Origin: Pristiophorus japonicus
Taxonomy: Eukaryota
Length of the DNA stretch: 64,000 nt
Direction of reading: 5' to 3'
NCBI RefSeq assembly: GCF_044704955.1
Contig: NC_091990.1
Coordinates: 187,302,001 to 187,366,000 of the forward strand
The number at the start of each line of letters is the position of its first letter. The first letter of the stretch is position 1. The notes under the pieces are model-generated. The model searched no databases and was not told the DNA's origin. It was given only the letters and a program-made list of their open reading frames with translations. Shown here one piece after another: positions 5,719 to 33,917 of the stretch. Made by a program: the position numbers and the translations under genes.

Positions 5719-5850
5719 CTAAAATGATGAAACACGTTTCATTTGATGCTTTCTTCTTCCTGTCTCTCGTTCTTCAGTCAACCTCTCTGCTTCATGGAAC
5801 TTTTCTGCCAGCATTTTATTGTATTGTTCCATTTGCTTCCTTCTAGCTTC
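5719..5850 (-). CDS. C11orf16: C11orf16 orthologue, last coding exon (EARRKQMEQY...KRVSSF*)
   Basis: catgttttctag acceptor, phase 0 matches previous exon; charged coiled-coil-like 43 aa then TAG. Confidence 0.7.
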   Translation of the reverse strand, partial: EARRKQMEQYNKMLAEKFHEAERLTEERETGRRKHQMKRVSSF

Positions 5851-6054
5851 CTAGAAAACATGAATAATGAGACATTATAACATTTTGTTTTAATTCACGC
5901 ATCCTTTTTTCTTCTTTTTGAAGAAGTGATGGTAATAGATCAGGAAGCAGGTAAAGAAGAATGTCGTTGGATGACCTGATACTACAGTTAGTTATGTGTG
6001 CCTCATACAATCCACCTGTACAGAGACAGGGAATAATAAAGGACATTGGTCAAC

Positions 6055-6360
6055 ACTGGTTGGGGATTCTAGGACGAGGGGGCATAGTCAAAAAATTAGA
6101 GCCAGACCTTTCAGGAGTGAAATTAGGAAACACTTCTATACATTAAGGGTGGTAGAAGTTTGGAACTCTCTTCTGCAAACAGCAATTGATGCTAGATCAA
6201 TTGATAATTTTAAAATCAGAGATTGATAGCTTCCTGTTAAAGTTATTAAGGGATATGGGCCAAAGATTGGTATATGGAGTTGGTCACAGATCAGCCATGA
6301 TCTCATTGAATGGCAGAGCAGGCTCGATGAGCTGAATGGCTTATTCCTGTTGCTATGTTC
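6055..6360 (+). mobile_element. CR1 3' end fragment
   Basis: TRGH...RVV.VWNSL motif and conserved 3' UTR gatcagccatgatctcattgaatggc. Confidence 0.8.
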
Positions 6361-6574
6361 CAAGAAAGAAAATTTACACTCGAGTGTATTAAACCAAAGA
6401 TTTTGCAGATGAATGTTTTTGAGTCCAGTTGTTCTTTCTGAATATTTCATTTGTGCTAATAATTACTGATGATGGGGACTGGTTGATACAGTGAACTAAC
6501 TAGCTTCTCAACTCTGGTCTCCATACAGCCTAGGTTTGTGGAATAAAAGTTTCCTCTTTCTGTTGACTATGGAT

Positions 6575-7040
6575 AAACTTAAGCTCATCCAAAACTCTGC
6601 TGCCTGTATCCTAACTCGCACCAAATCCCGTTCATCTATCATCCCTGTGCTCTCTGACCTACATTGGCTCCTGGTCCAGCAACATCTCGATTTTAAAGTT
6701 TTGAATGAGCTGAAATTTACAGAGAATTGAGGAAGATGGAAGGCGCTGAATAGCTGGTCTCAATGTTTGTCACAAAGAAGTCCATGAGCGCCTCACACCT
6801 GTTGGAGGTGAGGGTGGAAGGGATAGGGGAGGGAGATTCAAGGAAACACTTGGTACTGTAGAAGTGAAGCTGTGGGTTATCTTTGCTTTCAAGGATGATC
6901 CTGGAGCAGTGAGCAGTTTTTGCAGAAGAGAGAGAGGCCTGATAGTGTTTGATGTGGTCCAGCAAGGTCTGGTGATAGAGGGTTAACTGAGTTGTGTGCC
7001 AGATATGCTTGTCTGTGCTCTTGAACTTGAGGGAGTGATT
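6575..7040. mobile_element. L2 fragments in both orientations
   Basis: + LIQNSAACILTRTK..LHWL (6575-6700); - strand ORF 6717-6965 resembling L2 ORF2 tether. Confidence 0.6.
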
Positions 7041-9334
7041 ATAACATTGAGAGAGTGGAATAAAACAGAGAATTAAACCAGTTCACAATAGGAGCCAGTA
7101 ATGCAATGTGGGTGCCATTTATCCTGTCATCCTGCTGCCTAGAAATCATCACAAAATGGATGAATTGCCCTTCTCTTGTGAAGATGGTATTGGTAACCTG
7201 TCATATGCAGGACCACACTACACCCTGGCTAACGTTGCCTAAGTCCACGATTGTAGCTTGGGAGGTATCTATGGCATAACAATTGAGAGCTATGATGCAG
7301 GAGCCGAAGAGGAGAGGAGACAGATTTTTGAATATTAAGGGAATCAAGGGCTATGGGGACAGTGCAGTTGAGGTAGAAGATCAGCAATGATCTTGTTGAA
7401 TGACAGAGCAGGCTCCTAATTCTCATGTTCTTATGTAAGACTTAGACAGCCATGAACAGAGAAGTTCTGTAACTTCATCGGATCCGTAAGTCATCATGCA
7501 AAAGGTGGTACAGCTTCCTTAGTGAAATACAGTCACCAAAAGCAGACTCCTCAATCAGCCCCTCAAAAAATCTGCGAGGCCTATATATTTGTTGTGGGGG
7601 TAATAATTGGTTGAACTATCCTCCTTTGATGTTAACTCACCCTCCTTTTCTCCCTTTTGTTCTATTCCTACACAAAAGAATCCCATGTTACTCTACCTTA
7701 CTGTGAGTGTGTGTGTGGGGGGGAAGGCAGTCAAAAACATGCTGCTTACCAGAGAGACTCTCTAACAGTTTGAAGTGTGACTTAGTTGCTCCACACAGCA
7801 GAAGAAACCATTTCTCAAAAGATGCAGGCAAATGTGAGATATTGGCAAAAGTATTCAATGCATTAAGTACATTTTAAAAGTTCACATTTCCCTTTTAGGT
7901 CAATTCCAAAGAAGGTTGTGCCACATTTATCTGTATGTAACTTACCCTGAAGATAATTACATCTAATGGGGATACAACAGCCAGGAATCTTGGTCCCTTA
8001 AGCCATTCAGCTAATTTGCATGTATGTGAAGGAACAAATGTAGCAAGTGACACCTCCGACTCAGACCGGAAATTTTGGGGAACAAAAAATAGCTGGAACA
8101 ATTGTGGAAATTGATCTCACCTAGAATTATGAACCTCCAAATTGTATTCTGCTGCCACTGTGCTCCTGATATTTTCACCAGCATTGAGCAGCAAGTCTAC
8201 TAAGGCTTGTAGGTGTCATTGGAGAACTCAGTTGGGGATCTAGTGCACTGCATCCATCTTGGAACAATGGGCTAACTGGTGGGTTATGGTGGTGAACAAT
8301 ATGTAAACACACAAAATATAGAACACAAAAAAGATTTGAATAGGTTTCATGGTGCTGAGTATTGGGGACAAACTTCAAACCAGCACAAAGTGGCTTCTAT
8401 ATTTTTTACTTCCTGAAGGGCTGCACCGTGGAATAATATTCCAAGTGCAATATTATGGTTTTTCAGAGCTCAAGATGAGTTTTGAAGATATTTATTGGAG
8501 GATCTAAGAGATATCTGTTTCAACTGTTGATTTATATTCGTACCTAGAGGTCCTGCTGCATGCCACCTGCAGCTTTAACACAGTCCTTCAGAACCATGCT
8601 GAGAAGGGACGAAGGGCATTTTAATCTTTCTTGCACTTCAATAAAAAAATAACATTTCTACGGCACTTCTCATATCTTCAGGACGTCCCAAAGCACTTAC
8701 AAACAATGAAGTAGCATTGAAGTAGTCACTGTGACGGGCAAATTGGAATCAAAGATTGGCAGGCAAAACTGTAATCAAATAATGGACTGCCTTTAAAGAG
8801 GAGAGGGTTCAGGTACAGTCGAGGTACATTCCCACGAGGGGGAAAGGTAGGGCAACCATAGCCAGAGCTCGCTGGATGATGAAAGAGATAGAGAGTACAA
8901 TGAAGCAGAAAAAGGAGCATATGACAGACATCACGTTAAGAATACAAGTGAGAATAAGGTTGAATATAGAAAGGTCAAAGGGGAAGTGAAAAAGGAATTA
9001 AGAGGAGCAAAGAGGGAGTATGAGAATAGACCGGCAGCTAACATAAAAGGAATCCAAAAGTCTTCTATAGGCATATAAATAGTAAACAGGTAGTAAGAGG
9101 AGGGGTGGGGCTGATTAAGGACCAAAAAAGATACCTACGCATGGAGGCAGAGGGCATGGCTGAGGTACTAAATGAATACTTTGCATCTGTCTTTACCAAG
9201 GAAGAAGATGCTGCCAAAGTTATAGTGAAAATGAGATAGTTAAGATACTGGATGGGATAAAATTTGATAAAGAGGAGGTACTAGAAAGGCTGGCTGTATT
9301 TAAAGTAGATAAGTCACCAGGACTGGATGTGATG

Positions 9335-9619
9335 TATTGTGTCTGTAAGCACTCTAGTAATGACTCCACGAGGCAAGGTATTGTACTTGAACTGTGGTGA
9401 CCTTAGTCCATTTATTACAGCTCCTGAGTGAGGGTACAGCGTGGTGAGCTCCCTTTTATACCTGGTTACCTGTCGTGTACAGGTGACCCCTAGGTCTCCA
9501 CCAGTTGCACCCTCTGGTGGTACAGGCATAGTGTATACAGTGTGAAGGTACATCCAGTGGTCTTATGTAACTGTACATTGAGTGTACAGAGTGTATACTT
9601 ATATTATACATACACAACA
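9335..9619 (-). mobile_element. Solo LTR, short family, copy 1
   Basis: 5-bp TSD TGATG (9330-34, 9620-24); ends TATTGTG...CACAACA; minus-strand TATAAAA and AATAAA; homologous to 38101-38395 and 46780-47013. Confidence 0.8.
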
Positions 9620-10029
9620 TGATGCATCCTAGGATGCTGAGGGAAGTAAAGATGGAAACTGCAGAGGTACTGGCCATAATCTTCCAATCCTCCTTAGACA
9701 TAGGGTGGTACCAGAGGAATGGAGAATTGCAAATGTTGCACCCTTGTTCAAAAAAGGCTATATGGATAAACCCAGCAAATACAGGCCAGTCAGTTTAACT
9801 TAAGCATTGGGGAAGCTTTTAGAAACAATAATCTGGGACAAAATTAACAGTCACTTGGACAAGTGTGGATTAATTAAGGAAAGCCAACACAGATTTGTTA
9901 GAGGCAAACCATGTTTAACCAACTTGATTGAGTTTTTTGATGAGGTAACAGAAAGGGTTGATGAGGGCAATGCGATTAAAGTGGTGTACATGGATTTCCA
10001 ATAGGCGTTTGATAAAGTAGCACATAATA

Positions 10030-11475
10030 CAACACTGCCATCTATCTGACAACGTGGAAAACTGCCCAGGTATGTCCTGTCCACAAAACGCAGGACAAAT
10101 CCAATCCGGCCAATTACCGCCCCATCAGTCTACTCTCAATCATCAGCAAAGTGATGGATGGTGTCGTCGACAGTGCTATCAAGCGGCATTTACTCACCAA
10201 TAATCTGCTCACCGATGCTCAGTTTGGGTTCCACCAGGACGACTCGGCTCTAGACCGCTTTACAGCCTTGGTCTAAACATGGACAAAACTGCTGAATTCC
10301 TGAGGTGAGAGTGACTGCCCTTGACATCAAGGCAGCATTTGACAGAGTGTGGCATCAAGGAGCCCGAGTAAAATTGAAGTCAATGGGAATCAGGGGGAAA
10401 ACTCTCCATTGGATGGAGTCATACCTAGCACAAAGGAAGATGGCTGTGGTGTTGGTGGTCAATCATTCCAGCCCAGGACATCACTGCAGGAGTTCCTCAG
10501 GGCAAAGTCCTGAGCTCAACCATCTTCAGGTGCTTCATTAATAACCTTCCCTCCATCATAAGGTCAAAAGTGGGGATATTCGCTGATGAATGCACAATGT
10601 TCAATTCTATTCTTAATTCCTCAGAAAATAAAGCAGTCCATGCCAGCATGCAGCACGACCTAGACCATATTCAGGCTTGGGCTGATAAGTGGCAAATAAC
10701 ATTCGCTCCACACAAGCGCTAGGCAATGACCATCTCCAACAAGCGACAGTCTATCCACCACCCCTTGACAATCAGCGGCAATACCATTGCTGAATCCTCC
10801 ACCTTCAACATCCTGGGTCACCATTGACCAGAAACTTAACTGGACCATCATATAAATACTGTGGCTACAAGAGCGGGTCAGAGGCTGGGTATTCTGTGGC
10901 GAGTATCTCACCTCCTGACTCCCCAAAGCCTTTCTACCATCTGCAAGGCACAAGGAGTGTGATAGAATATTCTTCACTTGCCTGGATGAGTGCAGCTTCA
11001 CTAACACTCAAGAAGCTCGACACCATCCAGGACAAGGCAGCCCGTTTGATTGGCATCCCATCCATCATCTTAAACATTCAGTGCCTCCACCATTGGTGCA
11101 CCGTGGCTGCAGTGTGTACCATCTACAAGATGCACTGCAACAACACGCCAAGGCTTCTTCGGCAGCACCTCCCAAACCCACGACCTCTATCACCGAGAAG
11201 GACAAGGCAGCAGGCGCATGGGAACACCATCACCTCCAAGTTCCCCTCCAAGTTACACACCATCCTGACTTGCAAATATATCGCCGTTCCTTCATCGTCG
11301 CTGGGTCAAAATCCTGGAACTCTCTTCCTAACAATACTATGAGAGTTCCTTCACCACAAGGATTGCAGCGGTTCAAGAAGGCAGCTCACCATCACATTCT
11401 CTCGGGCAATTAGGGATGGGCAATAAATGCCGGCCTTGGCAGCGACACCCACATCCTGGAATGAATTTTTTTTAA
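10030..11475 (+). mobile_element. Second LINE family (CR1/L2-group RT), 3' portion, nested in CR1
   Basis: ALDIKAAFDRVWH, FADE and LDTIQDKAARLIG motifs; tail gggcaataaatgccggcc...; host CR1 resumes in register at taggcttgccagc. Confidence 0.8.
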
Positions 11476-11933
11476 ATAGGCTTGCCAGCAAAGTTGAAGC
11501 CCATGGAATAAAAGGGACAATGGCAGCATGGATACAAAATTGGCTAAGTGGGAAATTGGAAGGTGAACAGTCATTTTCAGACTGAAGGATTGTATACAGT
11601 GGTGTTCCCCAGGGGTCAGTACGAGGACCACTGCTTTTCTTGATGTATATTAATGACTTATTCTTGAGTGTACAGGGCACAATTTCAAAATTTGCAAAAG
11701 ACACAAAACTTGGAAGTAAGGAAAACAGTGAGGAGAATAGTGATAGAGGGCATAGACAGGCCGGTGTAATGGGCAGACACATGACCGATGGAATTTAATG
11801 CAGAAAAGTGCAGTGATACATTTTGGTAGGAAGAACAAGCAACAGTAATTAAACTAAAGGATACAATTCTAAAGTGGGTGCATGAACAGAGAGATCTGCG
11901 GGTATATGTGTACAAATTGTTGAAGGTGACAGG

Positions 11934-12050
11934 ACATAGAAACATAGAAAATAGGTACAGGAGTTCATGGCTGAACATGCAACTTCAGTACCCCATTCCT
12001 GCTTTCTCGCCATACCCCTTGATCCCCCTAGTAGTAAGGACTACATCTAA
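11934..12050 (-). mobile_element. CR1 3' tail fragment nested in CR1
   Basis: (catagaaa)n followed by antisense CR1 3' UTR. Confidence 0.75.
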
Positions 12051-13040
12051 CAGATTGAGAAAGCGGTTAAAAATTCATACAAGCTTTATAAATAGAGGTA
12101 TAGAGTACAAAAGCGTGGAAATGATGATGAACCTGTATAAAACACTGGTTCGGCCTCAACTGGAGTGCTGTATTCAAATCTGGGCATCTCACTTTAGAAA
12201 GGATGTGAAGGCCTTAGAGAGGGTGCAGAGAGGATTTACAAGAATGGTTCCAGGGATGAGGGACTTACCTTAAGTGGATAGACTGGAGAAGCTGGGGTTG
12301 TTCTCCTTAGAGCAGAGAAGGTTGAGAGGCGGATTTGATAGAGGTGTTCAAACTCATGAGGGGTCTGGACAGAGTAGATAGAATCTGTCCCCACTGGTGG
12401 AAGTTCAAGGACCAGAGGACACAGATTTAAGGTGATTGGCAGAAGGCGACATGAGGAAAAACTTTTTTATGCAGCGAGTGGTTAAGATCTGGAATGCACT
12501 GCCTGAAAGGGTGGTGGAGGCAGACTCAATTATGGCTTTCAAAAGGAAACTGGATAAGTACCTGAAGGAAAATAATTTGCAGTGCTACAGGGAATGGGCG
12601 GGGGTGTGGGACTAGCTGAAGTGCTCTTTCGGAGAGCTGGCACAGACTCAACAGGCCAAATGACCTCCTTCTGTGCTATAACCATTCTATGATTCTACGA
12701 TTCTATGGCTATGAAGGCAAATTTGGCAGCAAATTTGCACACAGCAAGATCTCTTAAAGAGTGATGAGATAAATGACCAGTAATTATATTTTGGTAGTAT
12801 TGGTTAAGAGATAAATGTTGACCTAATTTATGTGCTCAAGTCACTGACAACAAATATCAGGAACTTACAATGTGGGGAATCATATGCACAAACCCATATT
12901 ACACAGTCCCCAGTGTGATACATTTAAACAGCAATTCATTGCATTATATCCCCTCCAACCCCAACTAATGAAAAACGTAACAAAGTCATGGCACTATTGT
13001 TTATAACGTGTAACTTCTGTGTAGAAAAATCAATTTACTG

Positions 13041-13452
13041 TGTCAGCTGTGGCTCAGTGGTGGCACTCTTGCCTGTGTGTCAGAAAAGTCAAACCCCACT
13101 CCAGGACTTGAGCACAAAATTTTGAAGGAGTATTGCACTGTTGGAGGTGCTGTCGTTTGGACATGTGATGTAAAACGAGATCCTGTCTGCCCTCACATAA
13201 AATAACCTATGGCACTTATTGAAGAAGAGCAGGGCAAATCTCCGGGTGTCCTGGTGAACATTTATTCGTCAACTAAATCACTAATAAACTTTAATTGGTC
13301 ATTCATCCCATTACTGTTTGTAGGACCTTGCTGTGCGCAAATTGACTGCTGTGTTTTCTTCTACTGCAACAGTGACCGCATTTCAAAAAGTAATTAATTG
13401 GCTGTGAAGCACTTTGGAATGTAAAAGGTGCTATATAAATGTGTTCTTTTTT
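13041..13452 (+). mobile_element. tRNA-derived SINE, DeuSINE/SacSINE1-like, with L2-type tail
   Basis: A-box tggctcagtgg; central gaagaagagcaggg...ttgctgtgcgcaaattg block; L2-like tail aaaggtgctatataaatg; second copy at 25806-26273. Confidence 0.7.
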
Positions 13453-13498
13453 TCTAAGTGTTTTACTTTCCAAAGGAACAGTTTCCTGAGTAAGTTAC

Positions 13499-13748
13499 CT
13501 GCTTCTGGATTTCTTTAATCTCATTTGCTTTCACTTTCTCTGCCTCTATCGAATCCTTCCTCGCTGTCGCCTGCTGGAGATACGCCAATCTGCGGGTTTC
13601 TCTCTCCTTGTCCTCAGAGGCTATGGACTGGAACCTGGTGTGAGTCTTCTGCTGCAAATGTTTCTTGGCTCTCTTCATTTCCTCCAGCTGGCGCTCACAC
13701 TCTGCGACCTGTTTGAAATCCTTCTGCAGGCGCTGAATCACTTTCTCC
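13499..13748 (-). CDS. C11orf16: C11orf16 orthologue coding exon 10 (coiled coil)
   Basis: ttttgcctttag acceptor, CAG|gtaact donor; 250 nt, phase 2-0; EKVIQRLQKDF...EIQKQ. Confidence 0.8.
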
Positions 13749-14010
13749 CTAAAGGCAAAATACTGAATCAAGTCAGAGTCACTTTAATAGGTTGTGAAAA
13801 AAAATGTAATGACTGAAAATAAAAGGAAATAATGTTTTACTATTGCACTGTCTGCATTACTGTAAACTCCGGATAAAAGGTTACTGCTCTAAAAAAATAT
13901 GCATAGCAGAGCGTATCTGGAAAGCGTGTTCCCTTTTGTTGCTTAAATAATGGTTAGTGCACCAAAAGGTGCAGTGTGTTAGATATTTGTCTATAGCCTT
14001 AAGAGACTTG

Positions 14011-14358
14011 TGGGTAGAAATTTGCATAGTTTGCGCCTCCCGTTAGCGCCCCTGGTGGCATGGTGAGGCCCCTCGCCCCATTGCAGTGCTCGCAGCATGC
14101 CCTCCTCTTTAATGGAAGGGGAGGGTCATGTGCTCTCGCCATCTCTATGTGGCTCTCCGCGTAGCCCTGGACAATTCGCGTGCTTACCACCCATTCCCGC
14201 ACCCGAGAAGAAGTGGAGCACCCGACATTGTGCTCTGCTTCCTCTAGGGACGGTAATCACAATTTCACGGCAGGGATGGGACTTCCATGCCGGGTGCAGA
14301 AAGTCCAGCTACACCTTGGTTACCGCCCCAAAATGGGGCGCTACTGAACTTCGACCCC
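14011..14358. mobile_element. PIF/Harbinger-like MITE
   Basis: Imperfect TIRs TGGGTAGAAATT / AACTTCGACCCC, 3-bp TSD TTG, GC-rich interior. Confidence 0.6.
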
Positions 14359-15174
14359 TTGGGTTTTAATTCAGCCCATGGTAATAAGATGAAAATCTTA
14401 TGTTGTTAATTTTAAGGGTTCCACGTGAACAGAGTCTCAACTATTTCCTAGTAGGCACAAATCCACAATAGAAAATAAATCATAATTATACTTAGAAAGG
14501 TGAAGACCATCTCTGGGAAGAAAATGGAAACAATCATACTGGTGGGATCAGTTGTCTCATGCAGGTGGAGAATGTCTTAGCTTTTTTGTCTGAGAGGGTT
14601 TGCACTTAAGCTAGCAGGTGCTCGCTGAAACTGGAATTTGGGACATCATTAGAGTTTTACTCTGCAATTGAGTGTGACCAGGCAGCCCCTGATACTGACA
14701 CTGGGAGGCCAGGGTTGAAAAGTGGTCTGTTTCTTTGCAGTAACTGAGCATAATCATTCTTCAAATTGTAATAATAAAAAAATTATTTCTCAAGAAATGG
14801 TGAATATGTAAATTAGGATCAGTTGTCTCATACAGGTGGAGTAAGTCTTAGCTCTCTTGTATGGGAAGGTTTGCACTGTTCTGTGATATTTGACAGAGTG
14901 ACAGCTATTTTAGGCTGTGCTAATGCTTGTGAGCATAAGGCCAAATTTATTTCTACATTAGTGTGGATTTGTTTACATTTGTGTTTTTCAGCAGATTACT
15001 TGAAAAAGCTGAATAAAATCCAAAGATATTGATAAATCTCAAGTAATTTCAGATTGGTGTGCAATTTTTGAACACAGAAATAAGAGGAGCCTGGATATCT
15101 TGTGTGGGTTTTACTGTGTCATGGAGTTTCGATAAAACAAGCACCAAGAGTAAGAGTGTATTGAGTACAAATGC

Positions 15175-17845: not shown

Positions 17846-17849
17846 CTAC

Positions 17850-18065: not shown

Positions 18066-18667
18066 CTTGATTGAAACAGATATTTCAATAAAATAAAATA
18101 TCACACAAACATTGACTAGTTCCTGGTTTTCTTTACTTTTATAGGCTGGTCATGCGGCAAGGTTTGCTATGATCTAAAGTGGCTTGAGCTCTGAACCAAT
18201 ACAAGCTGTGTTTTGTAATTAATGTGTAGTCAATCACAAATCAACTTTGGTTTCACACTTAGTGCAATGGTGCAAAATAATGATCACCTGGAAGCATTTT
18301 AAACTTCATAGCACAGACAGTTAGCTCTCTGCAAATACTGAAATCATTTCTGGATATCAAATTGCAAACAATAATCACTCCCCAATATTAGATGATAGCC
18401 TGAAATCACACCTGGATATCAAATTGCTATTTGTAATCAACCCCTGCTCCCACCCCCATATCACATTGCAGCCTAGATTCACTCCCAAGTGGTATCCATT
18501 ATTTTTCATTTATATTGAATAATCCCTGGATTATACACATGTCACATTCTTTAACCTTGACTGTCTCATATTCTTTACCTGTCTCTAACTGATCTCTCAG
18601 TGTCACGACAGCTAACTTCTATTGTATTGCGCTACATTCAAACACTGTTACCCCAGACCTGATGTAC

Positions 18668-18840
18668 CTGCGCTGTTCCTGGACACTTCGATACTTGTCT
18701 TGACTTTGCTGCTCTCTGTCTTCCTCCCACTGACGCAGCTGCAGCTTTTTCTTTCTCGATCTTTGCACCGATTCCTGATGTTGGCGGTCACGTGATACCT
18801 GATTCTCTCCGAGACGCTCCTGAATTGGTGGAGCCTGAGC
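18668..18840 (-). CDS. C11orf16: C11orf16 orthologue coding exon 8
   Basis: T-rich tract plus ccag acceptor, AG|gtacat donor; phase 0-2; AQAPPIQERLGE...QWEEDREQQSQDKYRSVQEQR. Confidence 0.75.
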
Positions 18841-19614: not shown

Positions 19615-19808
19615 CCCGGTAGATGATGTGATGTCATGTTTCTGATGTGTCAGAACCTCTTTCATTGTGATTCTGTTCTGAGGATGTGTAGAATCAATGT
19701 TTTCAAACACTGCACTACAATTTGTTGGCCCAAGGTTCTGCAGCTTCATGGAAGAGATCAGCTGACTGGAGTCAGACAAACTCCTCGATGGACTTGTAGA
19801 CCATGTTC
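19615..19808 (-). CDS. C11orf16: C11orf16 orthologue coding exon 7
   Basis: ttttctttttgcag acceptor, GGG|gtaaac donor; phase 1-0; GPTNCSAVFENID...ITMKEVL. Confidence 0.75.
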
Positions 19809-21952: not shown

Positions 21953-22648
21953 CTGGTTTCTTTCTATATGGTTCTTGGTGGCTTTGAGTCCAATACCTCC
22001 ATTCAGGCCTGTCTTTTACTTTGGTCATTGGCATCTCCAACAGGTTAATGTCTGTATTCACCATTCTGTCTTCCAAAGTAGGCTTGCTGACAGTTGTTTC
22101 TGGGCCACTATCAGAATCTTCAGATGATGAAGAGGAAGAAGATGAACAAAGCAAGTTTTCATCAGGAACTTTCTTTTTGGGAATATCTAGTTCCTGAAGC
22201 TGTAAAGTAATTTTCTTGTCTAACTCATCTTTGTCAAATGCTGTTGTGTTGGTAGATCTTTGAGTCACTGGCCACCATCCTACGGGAGAAATCACTTCTG
22301 GAAAACAGTAACACGCAGGATGAGCTGGCAAACAGTGGAAGCCACGATAGAATCCATGCCAGTAATTATTATCTAGGTCCAGACCAGGGAAGCCTGAATA
22401 CCAGGGCTGGATGTATGTTGGTTCAAAGTGGCACAGGTGAGCCGGCAGAGTCTGGGGCTGAAGCAGACAAACATCACGACAGGTACTCAATTCCTCATCC
22501 TGTAGTTGCTGTCTGGATGATAGAGGAGTAAGCAGCTCCTGTAGCACTCTTTCATACAAAGCAGATGGAATCCATATGGCCACATTTTTGGAAACTTTGA
22601 CTGTTTTCCCATTCCAGAAGTTTATAGAGACCTCATCATCTTCAATCG
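21953..22648 (-). CDS. C11orf16: C11orf16 orthologue coding exon 6
   Basis: 696-nt open exon, phase 1-1; INFWNGKTVKV..VAIWI (end of DUF4537-like region), WWP, poly-S, RPEWRYW; G|gtaaag donor. Confidence 0.88.
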
Positions 22649-23863: not shown

Positions 23864-24092
23864 CTTGCAGAGGATCTCTGATCTCAATGCCAAATATCAC
23901 TGTTCCAGGACCATATCTGGTTCCATCTGATTGCCAAGGTGCTAATACGTTATCACCCAGAAGCACAGAATGCCTTATGGCCTCATTGTACTGAATTATA
24001 TCATACAATGCAGTCTTCTGCACAGATACTTGCCACTTCCTGCTTGGATCTAGAGATTTGTCAAATTCAATCAGGAATAATCCTTTCTTTAT
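23864..24092 (-). CDS. C11orf16: C11orf16 orthologue coding exon 5 (DUF4537-like)
   Basis: FLIEF...GDNVLAPWQSDGTRYGPGTVIFGIEIRDPLQ; canonical splice sites; phase 0-1. Confidence 0.9.
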
Positions 24093-24211
24093 CTGACAAC
24101 AGCAGAAAGAGGTTATGTTGCAGTATTTATTTTCCTTTATATATTACCTGACACTTTATTTTAGTTACCTGCAGTATTTGTTAAGTAAAGCATAATGATT
24201 CAAATAGTCTA

Positions 24212-24665
24212 CAACAACTAGTATAATTAAAAAGTGTCTTTAACGTAGTAATACCTCCCAAGGCACTTCACAGAAGCGTTACCAAACAAAATGTGACACC
24301 AAGTAATGTAAGGAGATATTAGGGCAGATGATCAAAGGCTTGGTTAAAAAGGTAGGTTTTAAGGAGCGCCTTAAAGGAGAAGAGAGGCAAAGAAGTTTAG
24401 GGAGGGAATTCTGAAGCTTGGGGCCTAGGCAGTTTCGCAATGGCCGCCAATGTTGGAACAATTAAAATCAGGGTTGAGCAAGAGGCCAGAATTGGAGGAG
24501 CACCGAGATCTCGGGGGGTTGTGGGGCTGGAGGAGATTACAGAGATAGGGAGGGGCGAGGCCATGGAGGGATTTGAAAACAAGGATGAGAATTTTGAAAT
24601 TGAGGCATTGCTTAACCGGGAGCCATTGTAGGTCAGCGAGCACAGGTGTGATGGGTGAACGGGAT
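24212..24665 (-). mobile_element. L2 3' fragment
   Basis: LQWLPVKQ.L.FKILILVFKSLHGLAPPYL motif plus L2 tail. Confidence 0.85.
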
Positions 24666-25210
24666 TACTGCAGATTAGTACATTTATATACTATGCCAAA
24701 AAGTAGTATTTCTCAAGGATGTGCCTGAGATTTTTCTTCCAATCTTGTCTCTTCCTCTCACAACGGCACTGTCTCATTTTGGGTATGCGGATTTAGTACT
24801 GTGCTAACTTGAGTCAGAGTGGTACAGATAATGGCAGCCACGTCAGCCATAAAATAGCAAAGCAGCCTGCTCTTCCCCAGAAATACCATCTTTCCCTTAA
24901 GAAGCCAGTTTTTATACTTTTCATTTATGTTCACTGAAGACAGCAGATGATCATTGCCGGCTACTTCAGCAAAACCACCCTCCTGTACCTCAAGCAAATG
25001 ATCATGATTTATCTGCATGTTTAGCGTCATCATGGTATTCCGCCATGAGTGAAGTTACAGTCCAACGCAATCCTGCCCTCACTCAACATCCACACATCCA
25101 CACAAATACTTTCCCTCTGGAATGACTGGATAGCTATCAGGAATGCCTGATTTTTCCCTCCCCCCCCCTCCCCTCCGCCTTGCTCAGGGCTGCTGGAGTT
25201 AATGACAGTA

Positions 25211-25655
25211 CAGGCAACTCTCGATTATCCGGGTCCCTCGGAGATGGGGCTATGCCGGGTAAACTATTTCTCCGTTAGAGCGAGTTGACATTAGAAAGTT
25301 AAAACTTCAATGAATAAATACTGTGCAATTAGCTACAAACAGTAACAAGGCAGTTAAGTATGGACATTACCAGCATGCATGCAGGTGGCCTCGAGGAGGA
25401 GATTGTCTAGCTCTGGGGTTTCGGAGTGCGATGCCTTCCCAGGCCAAAAGGTCTCCGAACGCACCGGCCCGATGCCTTCCCAGGCCAAAAGGACTCCAAA
25501 CGCACTGGCCCGATGCCTTCCCGGGTCGAAAGGACTCCAACGTCAGCGGCGGCTGCGAGAGACAGCGGCTGAGCAGCGCGCACATATACGGAATTTTAAA
25601 TGCCGTTACAACGGTTTCCCATTGCATCCATGTGTAGATAATCAAGAGTTGCCTG
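25211..25655. mobile_element. Tc1/mariner (Tigger/pogo-like) MITE
   Basis: TIRs CAGGCAACTCTCGATTATC / GATAATCAAGAGTTGCCTG, TA on both flanks. Confidence 0.8.
25429..25542 (+). repeat. 41-bp minisatellite, about 2.8 copies, inside the MITE
   Basis: cgatgccttcccaggccaaaagg... units begin at 25429, 25470 and 25511. Confidence 0.9.
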
Positions 25656-25805
25656 TATTTACTAATATCATCACACTGGCTAGGAAAAGCCAACTCAGGA
25701 ATTTAATTGAATTCTGCAGCATCTCTGATAGGTACAACAACCAAATAAAGTGGCATTTTCTCCTGTACAAATATTGTATGTTCCTCATAGGTATGACTGT
25801 CATAG

Positions 25806-26273
25806 TGTCAGCCAGGGGTACCATTGGTAGCATCCTTGCCTCTGAGTCAGAAGGCTGGAGTTGGGTCAAGTCCGACTCCATAGAGACTTAAGCACAAAAA
25901 TCTTGGCTTGGGCTCCAGTGCAGTACTGAGTGCTGCACTGTCTGAGATGCCGTCTTTTGGATGAGATGTTAAACCAAGGTCCCGTCTGCTCTCTCAGGTG
26001 GATGTAAATGATCCCATGGCACTATTTCAAAGAAGAGCAGGGAAGTTATTCCTGGAGTCCTGGCCTATGTTTATCCCTCAATCAACATCACTAAGATAGT
26101 GTATCTGATCATTATCATATTGCTGTTTGTGTGAGATTGCTGTGTGCAAATTGGCTGCCGCGTTTCCTACATTACAACAGTGACTGCACTTCAAAAGTAC
26201 TTCATGGGTTGTAAAATGCTTTGGGTGATCGGTGGTCATGAAAGGAACTATATAAATGCAAGACTTTCTTTCT
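25806..26273 (+). mobile_element. DeuSINE/SacSINE1-like SINE, copy 2
   Basis: Homologous to 13041-13452; tRNA-like head and L2-type tail. Confidence 0.75.
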
Positions 26274-26889
26274 CAATGTGAAATTTGATCAGATTATGAT
26301 CACGCTTCCCCTTTACTATGGGATTTCTAATTAACCCTGTCTCTTCACACAATACAAGATCTAAAATAGCCTATTCCTTGATTGGTTCCATGATGTATTG
26401 TTCTAGGAAAATGTCTCGAATGCTTTCCATGAACTCGACTTCCAGACTACTTTTGAATATTTTGAGGGGTGCCTTACTCAGCTTAGTATGTTCAAACATT
26501 CAATAATTTTGTAATAAAAATCAGTAACACGTACTAAGTTATTGATGTGCTTTATATGTATAATTTGTTAGAAATAAGTTGTGGGTAAACAAATAATTAT
26601 TTTACTCATCCAGAAACAGTTGCAATAAAACCGCAAAATGAGGAATGAGTTCCATTTGATGGCATAGTTGGTCAAGGATGCTGTTATAAATTGGATTAGA
26701 CAATGATATAGTGTAGAACTTTCAATAGGAGTGGGGTGAAGTTTATTTTTTGAATTCTTTTCTTTCAAATGAGAAGTTTTGTAATTATATAATCATGCAG
26801 TTGAATAAATAATCAGCTGTGCCAAGACTGCAAAAAGTTAAAAGAAATGTTATTACTAGTTCAATTTAAATATTAACAGCATAATTCAC

Positions 26890-27019
26890 CCCCACCTCTT
26901 GCTTGATTGTGCCACGGTAATAGAATCCATCAGACTCCCGCCTTGCTAAGACAGAGGTTCCAGAAATCAATTGACTTGATCCAAAAGGTCCCTTCCATGG
27001 GTCAGCATATTCGCAGATA
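26890..27019 (-). CDS. C11orf16: C11orf16 orthologue coding exon 4 (start of DUF4537-like region)
   Basis: VLARRESDGFYYRGTIK motif; tttctcaatag acceptor; GGG|gtgaat donor (alternative in-frame donor after 26896). Confidence 0.88.
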
Positions 27020-27861
27020 CTATTGAGAAAGATGTCAGTGCACAGCTCCAGCTTCATTTTGATCAATGCAAACAGTGGTTAAAGTATGCTTTGGGGAGAG
27101 CAGGAATTGGAAAATAAGCATGAATTCAATGCTTTATGTACAAAGTTTTTCTGTGTGATGATAGAGATAGAAAGCAAAGACACAGTCACATAACGAGTTG
27201 GGAGAGGACATCAGATGCAATTTGCAGTGAGGGAGGGGAATATAATGTATGACAAAAAAATTAGGGGCATCTATGGTAGAAAGCATTGATAATTCATTAG
27301 TTCCAATAAGAAAGGTTACATTCTTTAATATATTTCCTAATTATTTTTTTGATAAAAGCAAATTATCATAGAGCCATTTGACATCATCCAAAGCTATGTA
27401 GTTGCAGTCCAATTCAGAATTTCAGTGAATCCAGAAAAAAATTGTCCTTATAAAGGTAAAATAAGTCTTAGTAGTGTATGATCAATAAAATAATGGGCTA
27501 AGCAAGTCCCCTTAGCCTCCAAAAAATCCCGCCAACAAAACATGCTTAGCAACTGAAGTCCCATTATTAAAGTCAAACACAAAATCTTTTCCCTAATGTT
27601 GTGTTGTCTTGTAAATTGAACTATTCCAATACTGACATTAAATTGACAAGATACTCCACTAATTGCATCACTAGTGGGCTAGTCCACTAAAAACAATGGA
27701 TTATAGTCACACTACTTTTTAATGAAGAGCCAATTATTTGATTACATCAGTTATCCAGCTTGAGACATATTTTAATAATATAAGCTTGAAATACTTAAGC
27801 AATTTAAAACACTGTGCTCTGGTTTCTAATGTGACATGCAGCACTACAAATTAAGGAAATG

Positions 27862-27989
27862 CAAAAGCAAAATGCTGCGGATGCTGGAATTTAGAATAAA
27901 AACAGAAAATGCTGGAAATCTCAGCAGGTCAGGCAGCATCTGTGGAGAGGAAGCAGAGTTAATGTTTCGAGTCTATGACCCTTCATCAT
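27862..27989 (-). mobile_element. Short Penelope-like repeat with hammerhead-core relic
   Basis: Perfect 14-bp TSD AAATTAAGGAAATG (27848-61, 27990-28003); minus strand starts ATGATGAAGGGTCATAGACTCGAAACATTAAC. Confidence 0.7.
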
Positions 27990-28087
27990 AAATTAAGGAA
28001 ATGACTAGTTTAGTAAGTTCTAAGATAATGATACGAGTACCGAAATTTCTTTTATCAAGAAAATGAACAGAGAAGGAAGAGACTAAC

Positions 28088-28269
28088 CCAGCAGTAACCA
28101 GTGGACTGTACACACTGACCGGCTGCATGTGAAAAGTTTTTGGGTCAGAACCTTCTGCCCATGAGCCAATGTAAGCGTTGTTGTCCAGTGCTGTTTTTAC
28201 ACTGCAGTATTTCAGATCAGAATACAGGGGCCCAGAGGTTGAGAGGTCTGCAGGGTAAACAGGAATCAC
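28088..28269 (-). CDS. C11orf16: C11orf16 orthologue coding exon 3
   Basis: ttgttacctag acceptor; GG|gttagt donor gives the phase 2 needed by the next exon; VIPVYP...KYCSV. Confidence 0.7.
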
Positions 28270-28999
28270 CTAGGTAACAATGAACAAATGATTAGATTCT
28301 TCCACAATGTGAGGCATTTTCTTGCTAATATGTAGCAAACATTCCGAGAAAACAAATGGACCCAATCAAATAATGTGCCATTTGTTATTTTTCTCTCTCA
28401 CATGTTCCTGGTTAAAGGGAACGTTTCATCTATTTAAAATGACAAACTTGGATACTCATTAGTACAAGCCCCTGTACTGCTTCTCTCAGTACACATTTTT
28501 AGTCTGAAGACACTTAGCTCGCAATATCTGCAGTCCCTTTTTCCAGGATTAGAGAAACTAGAGTTATTCTTCCTGACGACCCTGTTATTGAAAAGCTATC
28601 AGGTTTCTCGGCTTGTGACTTATGCTGTTCAAAGCGCTTGGTTCAATTATTGTGTTTCTATCTGCTATGGAGGCAGAATTTAGTAACCAGATAGTATCCC
28701 CACTCTGTAATGGCATCAAATTCCTGCTAATAATTGTGGGTCAGATGATGCTATTGAAAACTGCGACTGGAACCTTCATTCTGTGTCACTGGATAGTCAC
28801 CAGGCAATAGTAAGCAGGCATTAGACATGCTGTCACAGTCCTCGGTGATATCATACTGACATCGATTCATTATTGGATAATAGCAGCACAAATAAATAGC
28901 AGGAAAAAATCCACTGGAAAAACATGGAAATTTGAGGCATTTAATTAAATAACTAAATTTTCTTCCTGCAGTCTAAGCTTACAGATTCATAATTATTTT

Positions 29000-29537
29000 C
29001 AACAATAATTTATATAGCGCCTTTAACGTTAGTAAAACATCTCATGGCGCTTCACAGGAGTATTATGAGAGAAAAATTTGACACCGAGCTGCATAAGGAA
29101 AATTAGGGCAGGAAGCTTGGTCAAGGAGGTAGGGTTTAAGGAGCGTCTTGAAGGAGGAAAGAAATGTAGAGAGACGGAAAGGTTTAGGCTTAGAATTCCA
29201 GAGCTTGGGGCCTAGGCAACAGAAGGCACGGCCACCAATGGTTGAGCGATTATAATCGGGTGCTCAAGGGGGCAGAATTAGAGGTGCGCAGACATCTGAG
29301 GGGGCGGGGGGTTGTGGACCTGGAGGAGATTACAGAGACAGGGAGGGGTGAGGCTATGGAGGGATTTGAAAACAAGGATGAGAATTTTGAAATCGAGGCA
29401 TTGCTTAACTGGGAGCCAACGTAGGTCAGTGAGCACAGGGGTGATGGGTGAGCATGACTTGGTGCAAGTTAGAACATGGCAGCCGAGTTTTGGATCACCT
29501 CTAGTTTATGTAGGGTATAATGCGGGGGGCCAACCAG
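29000..29537 (-). mobile_element. L2 3' fragment
   Basis: Antisense L2 tail and ORF2 C-terminus, homologous to 24212-24665. Confidence 0.85.
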
Positions 29538-29956
29538 GAAACATAGAAACATAGAAAATAGGTGCAGGAGTAGGCCATTCGGCCTTCGAGCCTGCACCAC
29601 CATTCAATAAGATCATGACTGATCATTCACCTCATTACCCCTTTCCTGCTTTTTCTCCATACCTTTGATCCCTTTAGCCATAGGGGCCATATCTAACTCC
29701 CTCTTGAATATATCCAATGAATTGCCATCAACAACTCTCTGCTGTAGAGAATTCCACGGGTTCACAACTCTCTGAGTGAAGAGGTTTCTCCTCATCTCAG
29801 TTCTAAATGGCTTAACCCTTACCCTTAGACTGTGTAGCCTGGTTCTGGACTTCCCCAACATCGGGACCATTCTTCCTGCATCTAACCTGTCCAGTCCCGC
29901 CAGAATTTTATATGTTTCTATGATCCTCTCATCCTTCATCCTTCTAAACTCCAGTG
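29538..29956 (-). mobile_element. CR1 3' fragment, (TTTCTATG)n subfamily
   Basis: IETYKIL.GLDRLDAGRM...RVVN.WNSL; (catagaaa)n tail. Confidence 0.88.
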
Positions 29957-29959
29957 AAG

Positions 29960-31215
29960 GAGGATCTTTGAGGATTTCTTTGAGGGCGGATAAGGGGGAA
30001 TCAGTGGATGTGGCATATTTGGATTTCCAGAAGGCATTCAATAAGGTGCCACATAAAAGGTTACTGCACAAGATAAACATTCACGGGGTTGGGGGTAATA
30101 TATTAGCATGGATAGAGGATTGGCTAACAAACAGAAAACAGAGAGTCGGGATAAATGGGTAATTTTCCGGTTGGCAAACAGTGACTAGTGGGATGCCGCA
30201 GGGATCAGTGCTGGGTCCTCAACTATTTACAATCTATTAATGACTTGGATGAAGGGACCGAGTGTAATGTAGCCAAATTTGCTGATGATACAAAGATGGG
30301 TGGGAAAGCAAATTGTGAGGAGAACACAAAAAATCTGCAAAGGGATGTAGACAGGCTAAGTGAGTGAGCAAAAATTTGGCAGATAGAGTATAATGTGAAA
30401 TGTGAGGTTATCCACTTTGGCAGAAAAAATAGAAAAGCAAATTATAATTTAAATGGAAAAAAATTGCTAAGTGCTGCAGAACAAAGGGACCTGGGGATCC
30501 TTGTGTATGAAACACACAAACTTGGTATGCAGGTACAGCAAATAATCAGCAAGACAAATGGAATGTTTGCCTTTATTTCAAGGGGGATGGAGTATAAAAG
30601 CAGAGAAGTCCTGCTACAACTGTACAGGGTATTGGTGAGGCCACACCTAGAGTACTGCGTGCAGTTTTGGTCTCCATATTTAAGGAGGGATATACTTGCA
30701 TTGGAGGCCGCTCAGAGAAGGTTCACTAGGTTGATTCCAGAGATGAGGGGGTTGACTTATGAAGATAGGTTGAGTAGGTTGAGCCTACTGAATTACAGTT
30801 CAGAAGAATAAGAGGTGCTCTTATCGAAACATAAAGCTAATGAGGGGGCTCGACAAGGTGGATGCAGAGAGGATACTTCTGCTCATAGGGGAAACTAAAA
30901 CTAGGGGACTTAGTCTCAGAATAAGGGGCCGCCCAGTTAAAACTGAGATGAGGAAGAATTTCTTCTCTCAGAGGGTTGTATATCTATGGAATTCCCTGCC
31001 CCAGAGAGCTGTGGAAGCTGAGCCATTGAATATATTTAAGGTGGAGATAGACAGATTTTTGAGCGATAAGGGAATAAAGGGTTATGGGGAGCGGGCAGGG
31101 AAGTGGAGCTGAGTCCATGATCAGATCAGCCATGATCTTATTAAATGGCGGAACAGGCTCAAGAGGTCAGGTGGCTTACTCCTGCTCCTATTTCTTATGT
31201 TCTTAGGTTCTTATG
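29960..31215 (+). mobile_element. CR1 3' portion, (TTCTTATG)n subfamily
   Basis: [33 protein letters not shown]; tail ttcttatgttcttaggttcttatg. Confidence 0.9.
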
Positions 31216-31644
31216 AATAGTCAAGTCTAGAGGTAACAAAGCCACAAAATATTCCAATTTACCACCACCTCTTCAATCATTCATTCAACAATTCAATCGA
31301 TGTTCACTGAACAGTGTAATGAGACTGTGAAAGGGGTGATAAGGAGAAGTCACGAATTCCGAAAATTTAAAACAAAAAAAGTGGCTATGCACTGCACTGC
31401 AATCAGTTACTTTTACCCCTCTTTCAAAAGGAGCGCTTTCGTTTGATTTTTGGCATTGATGACATTGGGGCATCGTACTGCCCCCTACGGCTTGTAAAGA
31501 AACAGCATCTGAAAGGGAGGATAGATGAAAGTTTGGGATGCGGTACTTCATCGCCTCTGTGACAGTCTTTGCCTTTCAGAAGATGATTGGCCTGCTGTGC
31601 TTTTCCATAATTTTCTGCAAAATTTCCCTAATTTTCTGCACAAT

Positions 31645-31886
31645 TTTCTTCTTCACTCAGAGAATTGTTAACCTGTGGAATTCCCTGCCGCAGAGAGTTG
31701 TTGTGGCCAGTTCGTTAGATATATTCAAAAGGGAGTTAGATGTGGCCCTTATGGCTAAAGGGATCAAGAGGTATGGAGAGAAAGCAGGAATGGGTACTGA
31801 AGTTGCATGATCAGCCAGGATCATATTGAATGGTGGTGCAGGCTCGAAGGGCCGAATGGCCTACTCCTGCACCTATTTTCTATGTT
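31645..31886 (+). mobile_element. CR1 3' tail fragment ending 24 nt from a C11orf16 splice donor
   Basis: FFTQRIVNLWNSLP and CR1 3' UTR. Confidence 0.85.
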
Positions 31887-31909
31887 GCCCATTTTTTCTC
31901 GCAAGTTAC

Positions 31910-32269
31910 CTGTTTGATATCTCCACAGGTGTCGAGTCTAATGAGATGAGCACTGCCGCGAGTCAGTCTGCCAAGTCCCTGCAGGAACTCTCGACTTTCA
32001 CTGTCGATCCATTTACCTGACAAGTAGAACGTGTGTATTGGACGGCTGCGGGATATATAAGGTATCACGTGGAAAATGTCCTTTAATGTATTGTCGGGCA
32101 GGCCGTTTGTCACCAGGTAGATAGCCTGACATACTGGGTCATCGAATGCAGCTGTTAATGCACCAAGCAGATCCCTGCCCAGCGTACAGGTGAGCGATTG
32201 AATCCACTGCATTGCACTAGAGACAGTCTGGGGGGAGCAGGTTACTATCCGGTCACACCATTTGGTTAC
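31910..32269 (-). CDS. C11orf16: C11orf16 orthologue coding exon 2 (VWA domain C-half)
   Basis: 360 nt, phase 0-0; KW....V.CSP...AMQWIQSL, LLGALTAAFDD, AIYLVTNGLPD, PIHTFY, FLQGLGRLTRG pattern of VWA3-type domains. Confidence 0.85.
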
Positions 32270-32600
32270 CTGCGTGAAGGAAGGATGCAATGGATGTTTA
32301 ACAGTGTAGCTATGTATCGGAATACAGATTAGAAAACAAATAATTTACACTCGTTATTCAAGGCGTAATAATTATGATAATTTAGCAGAACTAATATATA
32401 ATCAATATATAATATGGACCCAAAACATACATCATAAGCGAGTATAATACATATATAAACTCTTATTATGACTTTAGTTAATAAATCTAACTAACGCTAC
32501 ACGACATAATTAAATGACCTTTATTTACTTTTGAACTAGTCTCTTTTTGCTAAAGTGTATAAATTATACCTTTAACCTTCTTAGTACAAGTAGACTATAC

Positions 32601-32810
32601 CTTATTGGAAAACTCCACAATGTTAAAGCGACTGTGGTTAGTATTGTAAGCCTGGGCCAGAAGTGTTTCCATGAGGTGATACTTGACTGTAGTGAGGTTG
32701 GCTTGCATGCTTTCTGAGGTGTCAACAACAAAGGTAACATTCGTGTCCCTTATATCGCCAAACAATGTGGGAAATCCCTGGAACTGTGGAATGGGGTAAA
32801 CCACTGGCAT
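32601..32810 (-). CDS. C11orf16: C11orf16 orthologue coding exon 1 (VWA N-half); exon acceptor at 32842
   Basis: ACAACCATG start context; LFGDI...VTFVVDTSESM (DxSxS), FNIVEFS; AAG|gtatag donor. Confidence 0.8.
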
Positions 32811-33915: not shown

Positions 33916-33917
33916 AT

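What the first reader, a model, noticed from the sequence alone, without database searches (positions are those of the whole stretch)
5719..32810. C11orf16 orthologue with an N-terminal VWA domain and a long coiled-coil tail
Seen: 11 minus-strand exons with GT-AG sites whose phases chain into a 2772-nt frame (923 aa). Exons 1-2 encode a VWA fold, exons 4-6 a DUF4537-like region and exons 8-11 a K/E/R/Q-rich helix. Known (from recall): human C11orf16 is about half this size and lacks a VWA domain, while VWA3B combines VWA with DUF4537. Inference: this is the ancestral VWA+DUF4537 architecture, C11orf16 is a truncated VWA3-family relative in mammals, and this gives a functional handle on an uncharacterised gene.
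Basis: partly seen in the sequence, partly recalled or inferred. Interest (0 to 1): 0.7.

Follow-up and report, generated by a model that had tools for sequence, protein, structure and literature searches.

The report
Full-length shark C11orf16: VWA, Tudor, coil
This shark gene is the counterpart of the uncharacterised human gene C11orf16 and has exons for a VWA domain, a predicted tandem Tudor module and a predicted coiled coil, likely the ancestral form of a likely motile-cilium scaffold protein whose VWA part land vertebrates appear to have lost.

Summary
The gene is real, but the model needs correcting: 10 coding exons, 2550 nt, 849 aa (not 11 exons, 923 aa). It is colinear with 824-851 aa shark, ray and lungfish proteins that databases already list with VWA_3 + DUF4537. 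UniRef splits this species' gene in intron 3; spliced contigs join exons 1-2-3, 4-5 and 7-8, but none bridges 3-4. Synteny and a DUF4537 tree (100/99) make it the C11orf16 orthologue. VWA is kept in fishes and invertebrates and absent from 84 of 84 tetrapod proteins, which mostly start inside the old exon 3, so the loss is tetrapod-wide, not mammalian. The family is a sister of VWA3A/VWA3B (100/100), already separate in molluscs, not a cut-down VWA3B. DUF4537 folds as a tandem Tudor. The VWA metal site is complete in 30 of 44 invertebrate-clade domains and in 0 of 42 vertebrate ones. A VWA-bearing ohnolog lies beside an ASCL4-like gene; the scan noted it earlier in another genome. A motile-cilium scaffold role is inferred from human co-expression and X-box-like promoter sites. 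A known kind of gene, with a tidy history that my searches did not find in print.

The parts
33330..33400 (-). Four C(A/C)TAGCAAC sites about 20 bp apart, X-box (RFX) half-site-like, in a GC-rich stretch at the likely promoter
   Evidence: 4 of 5 window matches lie in these 71 bp. The same 9-mers stand in the RFX EMSA probes of PMC5024701. The pattern was chosen after I saw the sites, and the copies form a short degenerate repeat, so they are not independent. Function untested.
33266..33339 (-). Likely non-coding first exon (inferred)
   Evidence: The X2 contig has 74 nt before its piece at 32840; GT donor at 33265 seen; the piece itself was not listed.
32601..32841 (-). Coding exon 1 (acceptor 32841, ATG 32810): first half of VWA with DxSxS
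31910..32269 (-). Exon 2: second half of VWA
   Evidence: VWA_3 E 2e-6; spliced to exons 1 and 3 in contigs
28088..28269 (-). Exon 3: linker with the KYC motif; the tetrapod start codon maps to its codon 8
27020..28087 (-). Intron 3: where UniRef splits the gene (P0001 reads 37 aa into it and stops at the edge of a repeat; P0017 starts 13 aa before exon 4)
   Evidence: low-depth contigs of both runs lie inside it
26896..27019 (-). Exon 4: start of DUF4537 (Tudor repeat 1)
   Evidence: on one X1 contig with exon 5
23864..24092 (-). Exon 5: middle of DUF4537
21953..22648 (-). Exon 6: end of DUF4537, then a Cys/His-rich and Ser-rich low-confidence region
19615..19808 (-). Exon 7
18668..18840 (-). 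Exon 8: start of the predicted coiled coil
   Evidence: donor fixed by the X2 contig and orthologues
13499..13748 (-). Exon 9: predicted coiled coil
5719..5850 (-). Exon 10: end of the coiled coil, stop codon
62886..63587 (-). Neighbour: ASCL3-like bHLH ORF (synteny marker)
   Evidence: HLH E 8e-19; the name ASCL3 rests on P0015's label and on recall

Best explanation
The ten exons are the shark orthologue of C11orf16 and likely make one 849-aa protein, with a VWA domain, a predicted tandem Tudor module (DUF4537) and a predicted coiled coil, that likely works as a non-enzymatic scaffold in cells with motile cilia or flagella. Mechanism as inferred: RFX-type factors would switch the gene on in ciliated cells. 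The coiled coil would dimerise or anchor the protein on a ciliary or basal-body structure. The second Tudor repeat, which keeps a W/Y/F/N cluster, would bind a partner, possibly a methylated Lys/Arg peptide. The VWA domain would be a second docking surface, metal-dependent in invertebrates and probably metal-free in vertebrates. History as inferred: a VWA-Tudor-coil gene, already separate from VWA3A/VWA3B in the bilaterian ancestor, was duplicated with the ASCL3/ASCL4 block in early vertebrates. Its metal site decayed, tetrapods dropped exons 1-2 and gained a start codon inside exon 3, and several amniote and fish lineages later lost the coil. Shown: exon structure, domains, splicing of exons 1-2-3, 4-5 and 7-8, tree positions, domain distribution in annotated proteins. 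Inferred: the exon 3-4 join in this species, genomic loss in tetrapods, every functional step.
For: Exons are colinear with nine shark, ray, gar and lungfish orthologues; the model is 65-83% identical to cartilaginous-fish proteins without large gaps. The intron-derived tail of P0001 and head of P0017 match no other fetched protein, while orthologues run straight across the exon 3-4 boundary. DUF4537 tree: C11orf16 22 rows at 100/99, tetrapods nested beside lungfish; paralog 10 rows at 100/98; VWA3B outside. Tmemb_9 exons lie just beyond the ASCL3-like gene. VWA tree: family 21 rows against 20 VWA3A/3B domains at 100/100. VWA is absent from 84 of 84 tetrapod proteins; 43 of 84 have the KYC-type motif exactly at residue 13; no named tetrapod among 45 short VWA hits. 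Folds: VWA to ITIH, E 2e-11; DUF4537 to the tandem Tudors of SGF29 and BAHCC1, Z 10.3, rmsd 3.2-4.0 over 118-129 residues. W78, Y/F85, F112, W113, N114 of repeat 2 are kept in 84-99% of 196 rows. Human C11orf16, VWA3A and VWA3B are in the FOXJ1-coexpressed motile-cilia clusters of all four tissues (PMC7331728 supplement rows). VWA3B was found in respiratory cilia by proteomics (PMC12310455 passages). X-box-like sites.
Against: No contig bridges exons 3-4. The X2 contig stops one base into intron 3, and both runs have contigs inside intron 3. UniRef has two proteins for this species, and elephant-shark and reedfish models are also broken up. All cartilaginous-fish full-length proteins are predicted models. 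Tetrapod loss rests on annotated proteins, not on genome scans. No solved axonemal chain matches the family (best PDB hit ITIH4, E 7e-4). I saw no localisation data for C11orf16. The best Tudor matches are nuclear chromatin readers. The folds were predicted for orthologues (P0008, mean pLDDT 59.6, pTM 0.33; P0205, pLDDT 75.3), not for the window's own protein.
Confidence: 0.65

Rival explanations
1. The gene structure and history are as above, but the protein is a nuclear or germ-cell methyl-mark reader that is merely co-expressed with the cilia programme.
For: The top fold matches are histone-binding tandem Tudors (SGF29, BAHCC1, SETDB1, 53BP1). Aromatic residues of repeat 2 are conserved. 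No axonemal structure holds the family. A goat ovary proteome lists C11orf16 on one peptide (PMC9281040 passages).
Against: A shared fold shows no function, and identities are 12-20%. Repeat 1 has Arg where PHF1 has Trp. The sister protein VWA3B was detected in isolated cilia. A long coil fits a structural role (general knowledge).
Confidence: 0.2
2. In this shark the locus yields two products, a 288-aa VWA-only protein and a 611-aa DUF4537-coil protein, through retention of intron 3 or an internal start, as UniRef has it.
For: Two UniRef entries match the window letter for letter. No bridge of exons 3-4 in 2 of 2 runs; contigs inside intron 3 at depth 2-5.5, against 4.3-8.9 for the spliced exon 2-3 contigs; the X1 intron piece is 93% alike, as alike as the exons.
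Against: Both splice sites are canonical and in phase. The boundary peptide is colinear with 8 of 9 orthologues tested by pattern, and the intron-derived peptides have no homologue. X2 has no cover of exon 4 at all, so the junction could not be seen there. Unspliced precursor RNA explains low-depth intron contigs.
Confidence: 0.1
3. One reading: C11orf16 is a VWA3-family gene cut down specifically in mammals, and VWA gives it its function.
For: VWA3A/VWA3B are the nearest named outside relatives among the best 150 of 1.84 billion proteins. VWA3B has the same order, VWA then DUF4537. The coil was found in 0 of 33 mammal proteins.
Against: VWA is missing in all 30 amphibian, 6 turtle, 7 bird, 7 squamate and 1 crocodilian proteins too. 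The families are separate in molluscs. The metal site is incomplete in 42 of 42 vertebrate domains.
Confidence: 0.05

Closest known systems
C11orf16 homologues of cartilaginous fishes, gar, paddlefish and lungfish (NCBI/UniRef models, PF13768 + PF15057)
   Same: Same ten exons, domains and length (824-851 aa for the long ones); 65-83% identity within cartilaginous fishes.
   Different: This species' own entry is split into two proteins at intron 3.
Mammalian C11orf16 / mouse BC051019 (orangutan 466 aa, mouse 402 aa)
   Same: Orthologue by DUF4537 tree and neighbours (the human gene order is recalled); shares the KYC motif and DUF4537.
   Different: Lacks exons 1-2 (VWA) and the coil; starts inside the exon 3 homologue. 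The human protein itself was not among the listed hits.
VWA3B (and VWA3A)
   Same: Related VWA_3-type domains; VWA3B carries DUF4537 after its VWA domains; same human motile-cilia signature.
   Different: Two VWA domains (VWA3B) or three without DUF4537 (VWA3A), 1190-1740 aa, last VWA mostly with a complete metal site; separate branch since before molluscs and chordates split.
Tandem Tudor readers SGF29, BAHCC1, SETDB1, 53BP1
   Same: Predicted fold of DUF4537 (Z 6.9-10.3).
   Different: 12-20% identity; ligand binding not tested; no chromatin context shown.
Unnamed C11orf16-like ohnolog (Heterodontus P0056, gecko P0081, frog P0082, newt P0086; own genome G000:C15:55.95-55.98 Mb)
   Same: VWA + DUF4537, exon breaks at matching places, ASCL-type neighbour.
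   Different: Keeps a degenerate VWA in amphibians and reptiles; no mammal among its named members here.

Membership tests
C11orf16 orthologue | DUF4537 groups with tetrapod C11orf16 rather than with paralogs | tested here: met
   22 rows at 100/99; four intended rows (alligator paralog, Adineta, Polypterus, Octopus) dropped out of that tree through a stale file
C11orf16 orthologue | Neighbours TMEM9B - ASCL3 - gene - AKIP1 | tested here: met
   Tmemb_9 and HLH hits in that order; the human order and the AKIP1 label of 653-797 are recalled, not tested
VWA domain (VWA_3, PF13768) | Profile hit over cut-off and VWA fold | tested here: met
   28.4 bits for exon 2, 40.7 for the orthologue; Foldseek to ITIH E 2e-11
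Metal-binding (MIDAS) VWA | D-x-S-x-S ... T ... D | tested here: not met
   Window protein reads D,S,S,R,N; complete in 0 of 10 non-teleost, 0 of 15 teleost-clade, 0 of 17 paralog domains and 30 of 44 invertebrate-clade domains; the MIDAS definition is recalled
VWA3B | Two VWA domains before DUF4537, over 1100 aa | tested here: not met
   one VWA, 849 aa
VWA3B | VWA and DUF4537 group with VWA3B sequences | tested here: not met
   (unrooted; separated at 100/100 in the VWA tree)
Tandem Tudor domain | Two Tudor barrels in tandem | tested here: met
   predicted model of orthologue P0205: Z 10.3 to SGF29 and BAHCC1, Foldseek E 5e-6
Tandem Tudor methyl-reader | Complete aromatic cage and methyl-peptide binding | tested here: inconclusive
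   conserved W/Y/F/W/N in repeat 2, Arg at the Trp place of repeat 1; cage geometry and binding not tested
Motile-cilium protein | Localisation in cilium or basal body | not testable with these tools
   only human co-expression and promoter motifs
Single VWA+DUF4537 transcript in this species | Reads across 28088/27019 | tested here: inconclusive
   no bridging contig in 2 runs; X2 does not cover exon 4

The most novel reading that the evidence does not exclude
DUF4537 is a methyl-mark-reading tandem Tudor module used inside motile cilia. C11orf16, its lost-in-mammals ohnolog and VWA3B form an unrecognised bilaterian family of ciliary reader-scaffolds. Its VWA arm decayed in visible steps (metal site, then the whole domain, with a new start codon in exon 3), and sharks already uncouple the two halves by regulated retention of intron 3.
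Probability: 0.15. Interest if true: 0.7.

Novelty: new member of a known kind. Interest (0 to 1): 0.33.

Why it matters
It corrects a split annotation and gives an uncharacterised human gene a structure and history: a predicted tandem Tudor core, a VWA domain lost at the base of tetrapods, a coil lost later, and a sister copy that still has the VWA. That yields direct tests (localisation in cilia, methyl-peptide binding, fish knockouts of the full form). It also suggests what the DUF4537 of VWA3B is; VWA3B is a ciliary-proteome protein, and its link to ataxia is recalled, not checked. No new biochemistry is shown, and the architecture was already visible in public protein annotations.

Tried and rejected
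Eleventh exon: the scan of introns gave 18032-17850 as the best candidate; rejected for lack of any homologue. Exon 8 donor at 18659: rejected, contig and orthologues end at 18668. Run search: no holder on record as RNA was listed; the two runs were laid anyway and gave spliced contigs. Exons 9-10 lay outside both laid stretches, so their junctions were not tested. No bridge of exons 3-4 is a blank, not a disproof. 'VWA lost in teleosts', suggested by the precomputed Pfam column, is wrong: Arapaima, Aldrovandia and Clinocottus have the domain under Pfam's cut-off. Search for a tetrapod VWA-only remnant: none named among 45 hits of 97-536 aa; the search needs shared 5-residue words, and 26 or more hits are unnamed. 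A full X-box consensus (recalled) has no match at this promoter, and no half-site cluster was found upstream of the paralog. PDB sequence searches gave only ITIH and weak Tudor hits. Literature searches: C11orf16 (40 papers, 30 listed), VWA3A or VWA3B (228, 30 listed), DUF4537 (3), VWA3A + axoneme + cryo-EM (0), VWA3B/cilia terms (25 listed), BC051019 (5), C11orf16 + cilia (4), X-box terms (6). No listing described the VWA-bearing form or the tetrapod loss; most papers were seen as listings only. The fold-mining preprint 10.1101/2021.08.24.457439 assigns domains to C11orf16 in a figure and supplement that I could not see (one passage), so a Tudor assignment may already be in print. PMC11619975 confuses C11orf16 with AAMDC (passages) and was not used.
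Full report
Setting. The window is a repeat-rich vertebrate stretch. Exon 2 is 100% identical to a UniRef protein labelled Pristiophorus japonicus, so the genome is most likely that sawshark's. An HLH gene lies at 63587-62886, and Tmemb_9 exons follow just outside the window.

Gene model. Reading the minus strand and scanning for splice sites gave ten coding exons from ATG 32810 to the stop at 5719. Nine orthologues map onto exactly these ten. Joined, they give 2550 nt and 849 aa, with no internal stop and GT-AG at all nine introns. The best extra candidate, 18032-17850, has no homologue. Pfam finds VWA/VWA_3 in exons 1-2 and DUF4537 in exons 4-6. The last 184 aa are 55% K/E/R/Q.

Splicing. 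Two coded runs were laid as contigs; neither is on record as RNA, but their contigs skip introns at the predicted sites. X2 (0 differences) joins exons 1-2-3 and 7-8. X1 (about 7% diverged) joins exons 2-3 and has exons 4 and 5 on one contig. The exon 3-4 junction, which links VWA to DUF4537, was not bridged: X2 has no cover on exon 4, its contig stops one base past the donor, and both runs have low-depth contigs inside intron 3. UniRef splits the gene there, into a 288-aa 'VWA3A-like' protein and a 611-aa 'C11orf16 homolog'. They share 251 and 598 aa with my model; their 37-aa tail and 13-aa head come from intron 3 and match nothing else, while 8 of 9 orthologues tested show the boundary peptide in one chain. 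I read the split as an annotation artefact, perhaps caused by a slowly spliced intron. This is inference.

Already in databases. 12 of 15 hits to exon 2 carry both PF13768 and PF15057: sharks, rays, gar, sturgeon, lungfish. The architecture is therefore not unique to this gene.

Distribution. A profile search listed 120 of 123 hits, which I scanned with region profiles. VWA is present in cartilaginous fishes, gar, sturgeon, paddlefish, Arapaima, Aldrovandia, lungfish, amphioxus, a tunicate and a snail. It is absent from 84 of 84 named tetrapod C11orf16 proteins (30 amphibian, 6 turtle, 1 crocodilian, 7 bird, 7 squamate, 33 mammal; five unnamed proteins and three tetrapod paralogs left out). 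Non-tetrapod entries without VWA are split or partial models (sawshark, Rhinoraja, coelacanth, elephant shark, whose VWA part is fused to ASCL3 in P0015). 43 of the 84 have the KYC-type motif exactly at residue 13, which puts their start codon at codon 8 of shark exon 3. This points to one loss of exons 1-2 in the tetrapod stem. The coil was found in 29 of 30 amphibian and 4 of 6 turtle proteins, and in none of the mammal, bird, squamate or crocodilian ones, nor in gar, Arapaima or Aldrovandia. The search of 1.84 billion representatives (best 150 listed; architectures; 30 named) adds a hemichordate, a brachiopod, octopus, rotifers and a flatworm. No arthropod, nematode or non-bilaterian was among the 30 named, which is too few to claim absence. 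No named tetrapod was among 45 short VWA hits.

Relation to VWA3A/VWA3B. VWA3B has two VWA domains and DUF4537; VWA3A has three VWA domains and no DUF4537. In a FastTree of 136 VWA domains and an IQ-TREE of 41 of them, the C11orf16-family domains stand apart from all VWA3A/3B domains (100/100), with molluscs on both sides. In a 42-row DUF4537 tree the sawshark gene sits in the C11orf16 group (100/99), tetrapods nest beside lungfish, and VWA3B is outside (four intended rows were dropped). The trees are unrooted. So it is an old sister family, not a shortened VWA3B.

Ohnolog. The own genome has three DUF4537 matches among 150 scored of 471 candidates. One, on C15, is a complete VWA + DUF4537 gene with exon breaks at matching places. 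It lies between a PR-zinc-knuckle gene and an ABC1-kinase gene (PRDM4 and ADCK2 by recall), 87 kb from a bHLH 83% identical to the window's. Its relatives occur in sharks, skates, paddlefish, gar, coelacanth, amphibians, alligator and squamates and form their own group (100/98). This fits an early vertebrate block duplication. An earlier scan note (e1-10283621), seen after I had found the copy, says the same for a ray; nothing was noted near this window.

Structure. AlphaFold2 on the bamboo-shark orthologue gives a confident VWA (residues 24-193), a beta module (270-425), disordered linkers and one long helix (680-850); mean pLDDT 59.6, pTM 0.33. Foldseek matches the VWA best to ITIH chains and the beta module to the BAHCC1 tandem Tudor. 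A model of the DUF4537 of P0205 matches SGF29 and BAHCC1 at Z 10.3, then SETDB1, SAWADEE, Agenet, UHRF1 and 53BP1. In 196 aligned rows, repeat 2 keeps W, Y/F, F, W, N, while repeat 1 has Arg where PHF1 has Trp. PMC11855755 labels a TDRD1 fragment as DUF4537 (one passage), which agrees with a Tudor fold. The five MIDAS residues are complete in 30 of 44 invertebrate-clade domains and in 0 of 42 vertebrate ones; this gene has Arg and Asn for Thr and Asp (some rows are fragments, and Ser for Thr was counted as incomplete).

Function. Human C11orf16, VWA3A and VWA3B are all in the FOXJ1-coexpressed clusters of four tissues (PMC7331728, supplement rows and passages). VWA3B was detected in respiratory cilia (PMC12310455, passages). 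Four X-box half-site-like 9-mers cluster upstream of the likely first exon; they equal parts of RFX probes in PMC5024701 (passages), but the pattern was chosen after I saw the sites. Against a fixed axonemal role, no solved chain matches the family. I commit to a ciliary scaffold as the likeliest role, with a nuclear or germ-cell reader as the main rival.

Verdict. Observation partly confirmed; interpretation partly supported. It is an ordinary orthologue whose domain pairing is already in annotations. The stepwise decay, the tetrapod start codon, the Tudor assignment and the ohnolog were not found in my eight literature searches, with the caveat on the unseen preprint figure and supplement. 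Interest 0.33.

Noticed in passing
window 653-797 (+): Terminal coding exon (AG acceptor, 47 aa, stop) of a convergent neighbour; it resembles the end of AKIP1 by recall.
   Followed up: partly
window 62886-63587 (-): ASCL3-like bHLH ORF; the genome has two further close copies, on C15 (83%) and on C17 (85%), the latter near Tmemb_9 exons, i.e. a third copy of the block where no DUF4537 match was listed.
   Followed up: partly
L001 = G000:C10:193082244-193082531: Another DUF4537 exon, closest to the last repeat of a snail VWA3B (E 7e-12) and only weakly like ray VWA3B; gene not identified.
   Followed up: partly
protein P0015 (Callorhinchus milii): A public model fuses ASCL3 to the VWA exons of C11orf16; probably an annotation read-through, but it confirms that the two are adjacent.
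   Followed up: no
window 24093-24100 (-): The exon 5 acceptor gives a protein two residues shorter than in other sharks and like that of rays, which suggests tandem acceptors.
   Followed up: no
window 49300-50600: Long C/T low-complexity tract around the run of N at 49931-50062.
   Followed up: no
window 33550-36990, 59245-60549 and elsewhere: Many broken LINE (reverse-transcriptase-like, by recall) fragments fill the introns and the stretch between this gene and the ASCL3-like gene.
   Followed up: no
proteins P0031, P0034, P0122, P0129, P0130: Amphioxus and other invertebrate members have long isoforms (1300-1430 aa) with about 400 extra residues before the coil.
   Followed up: no
protein P0207 (JGI, unnamed): 2070-aa protein with five tandem VWA domains related to this family.
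   Followed up: no
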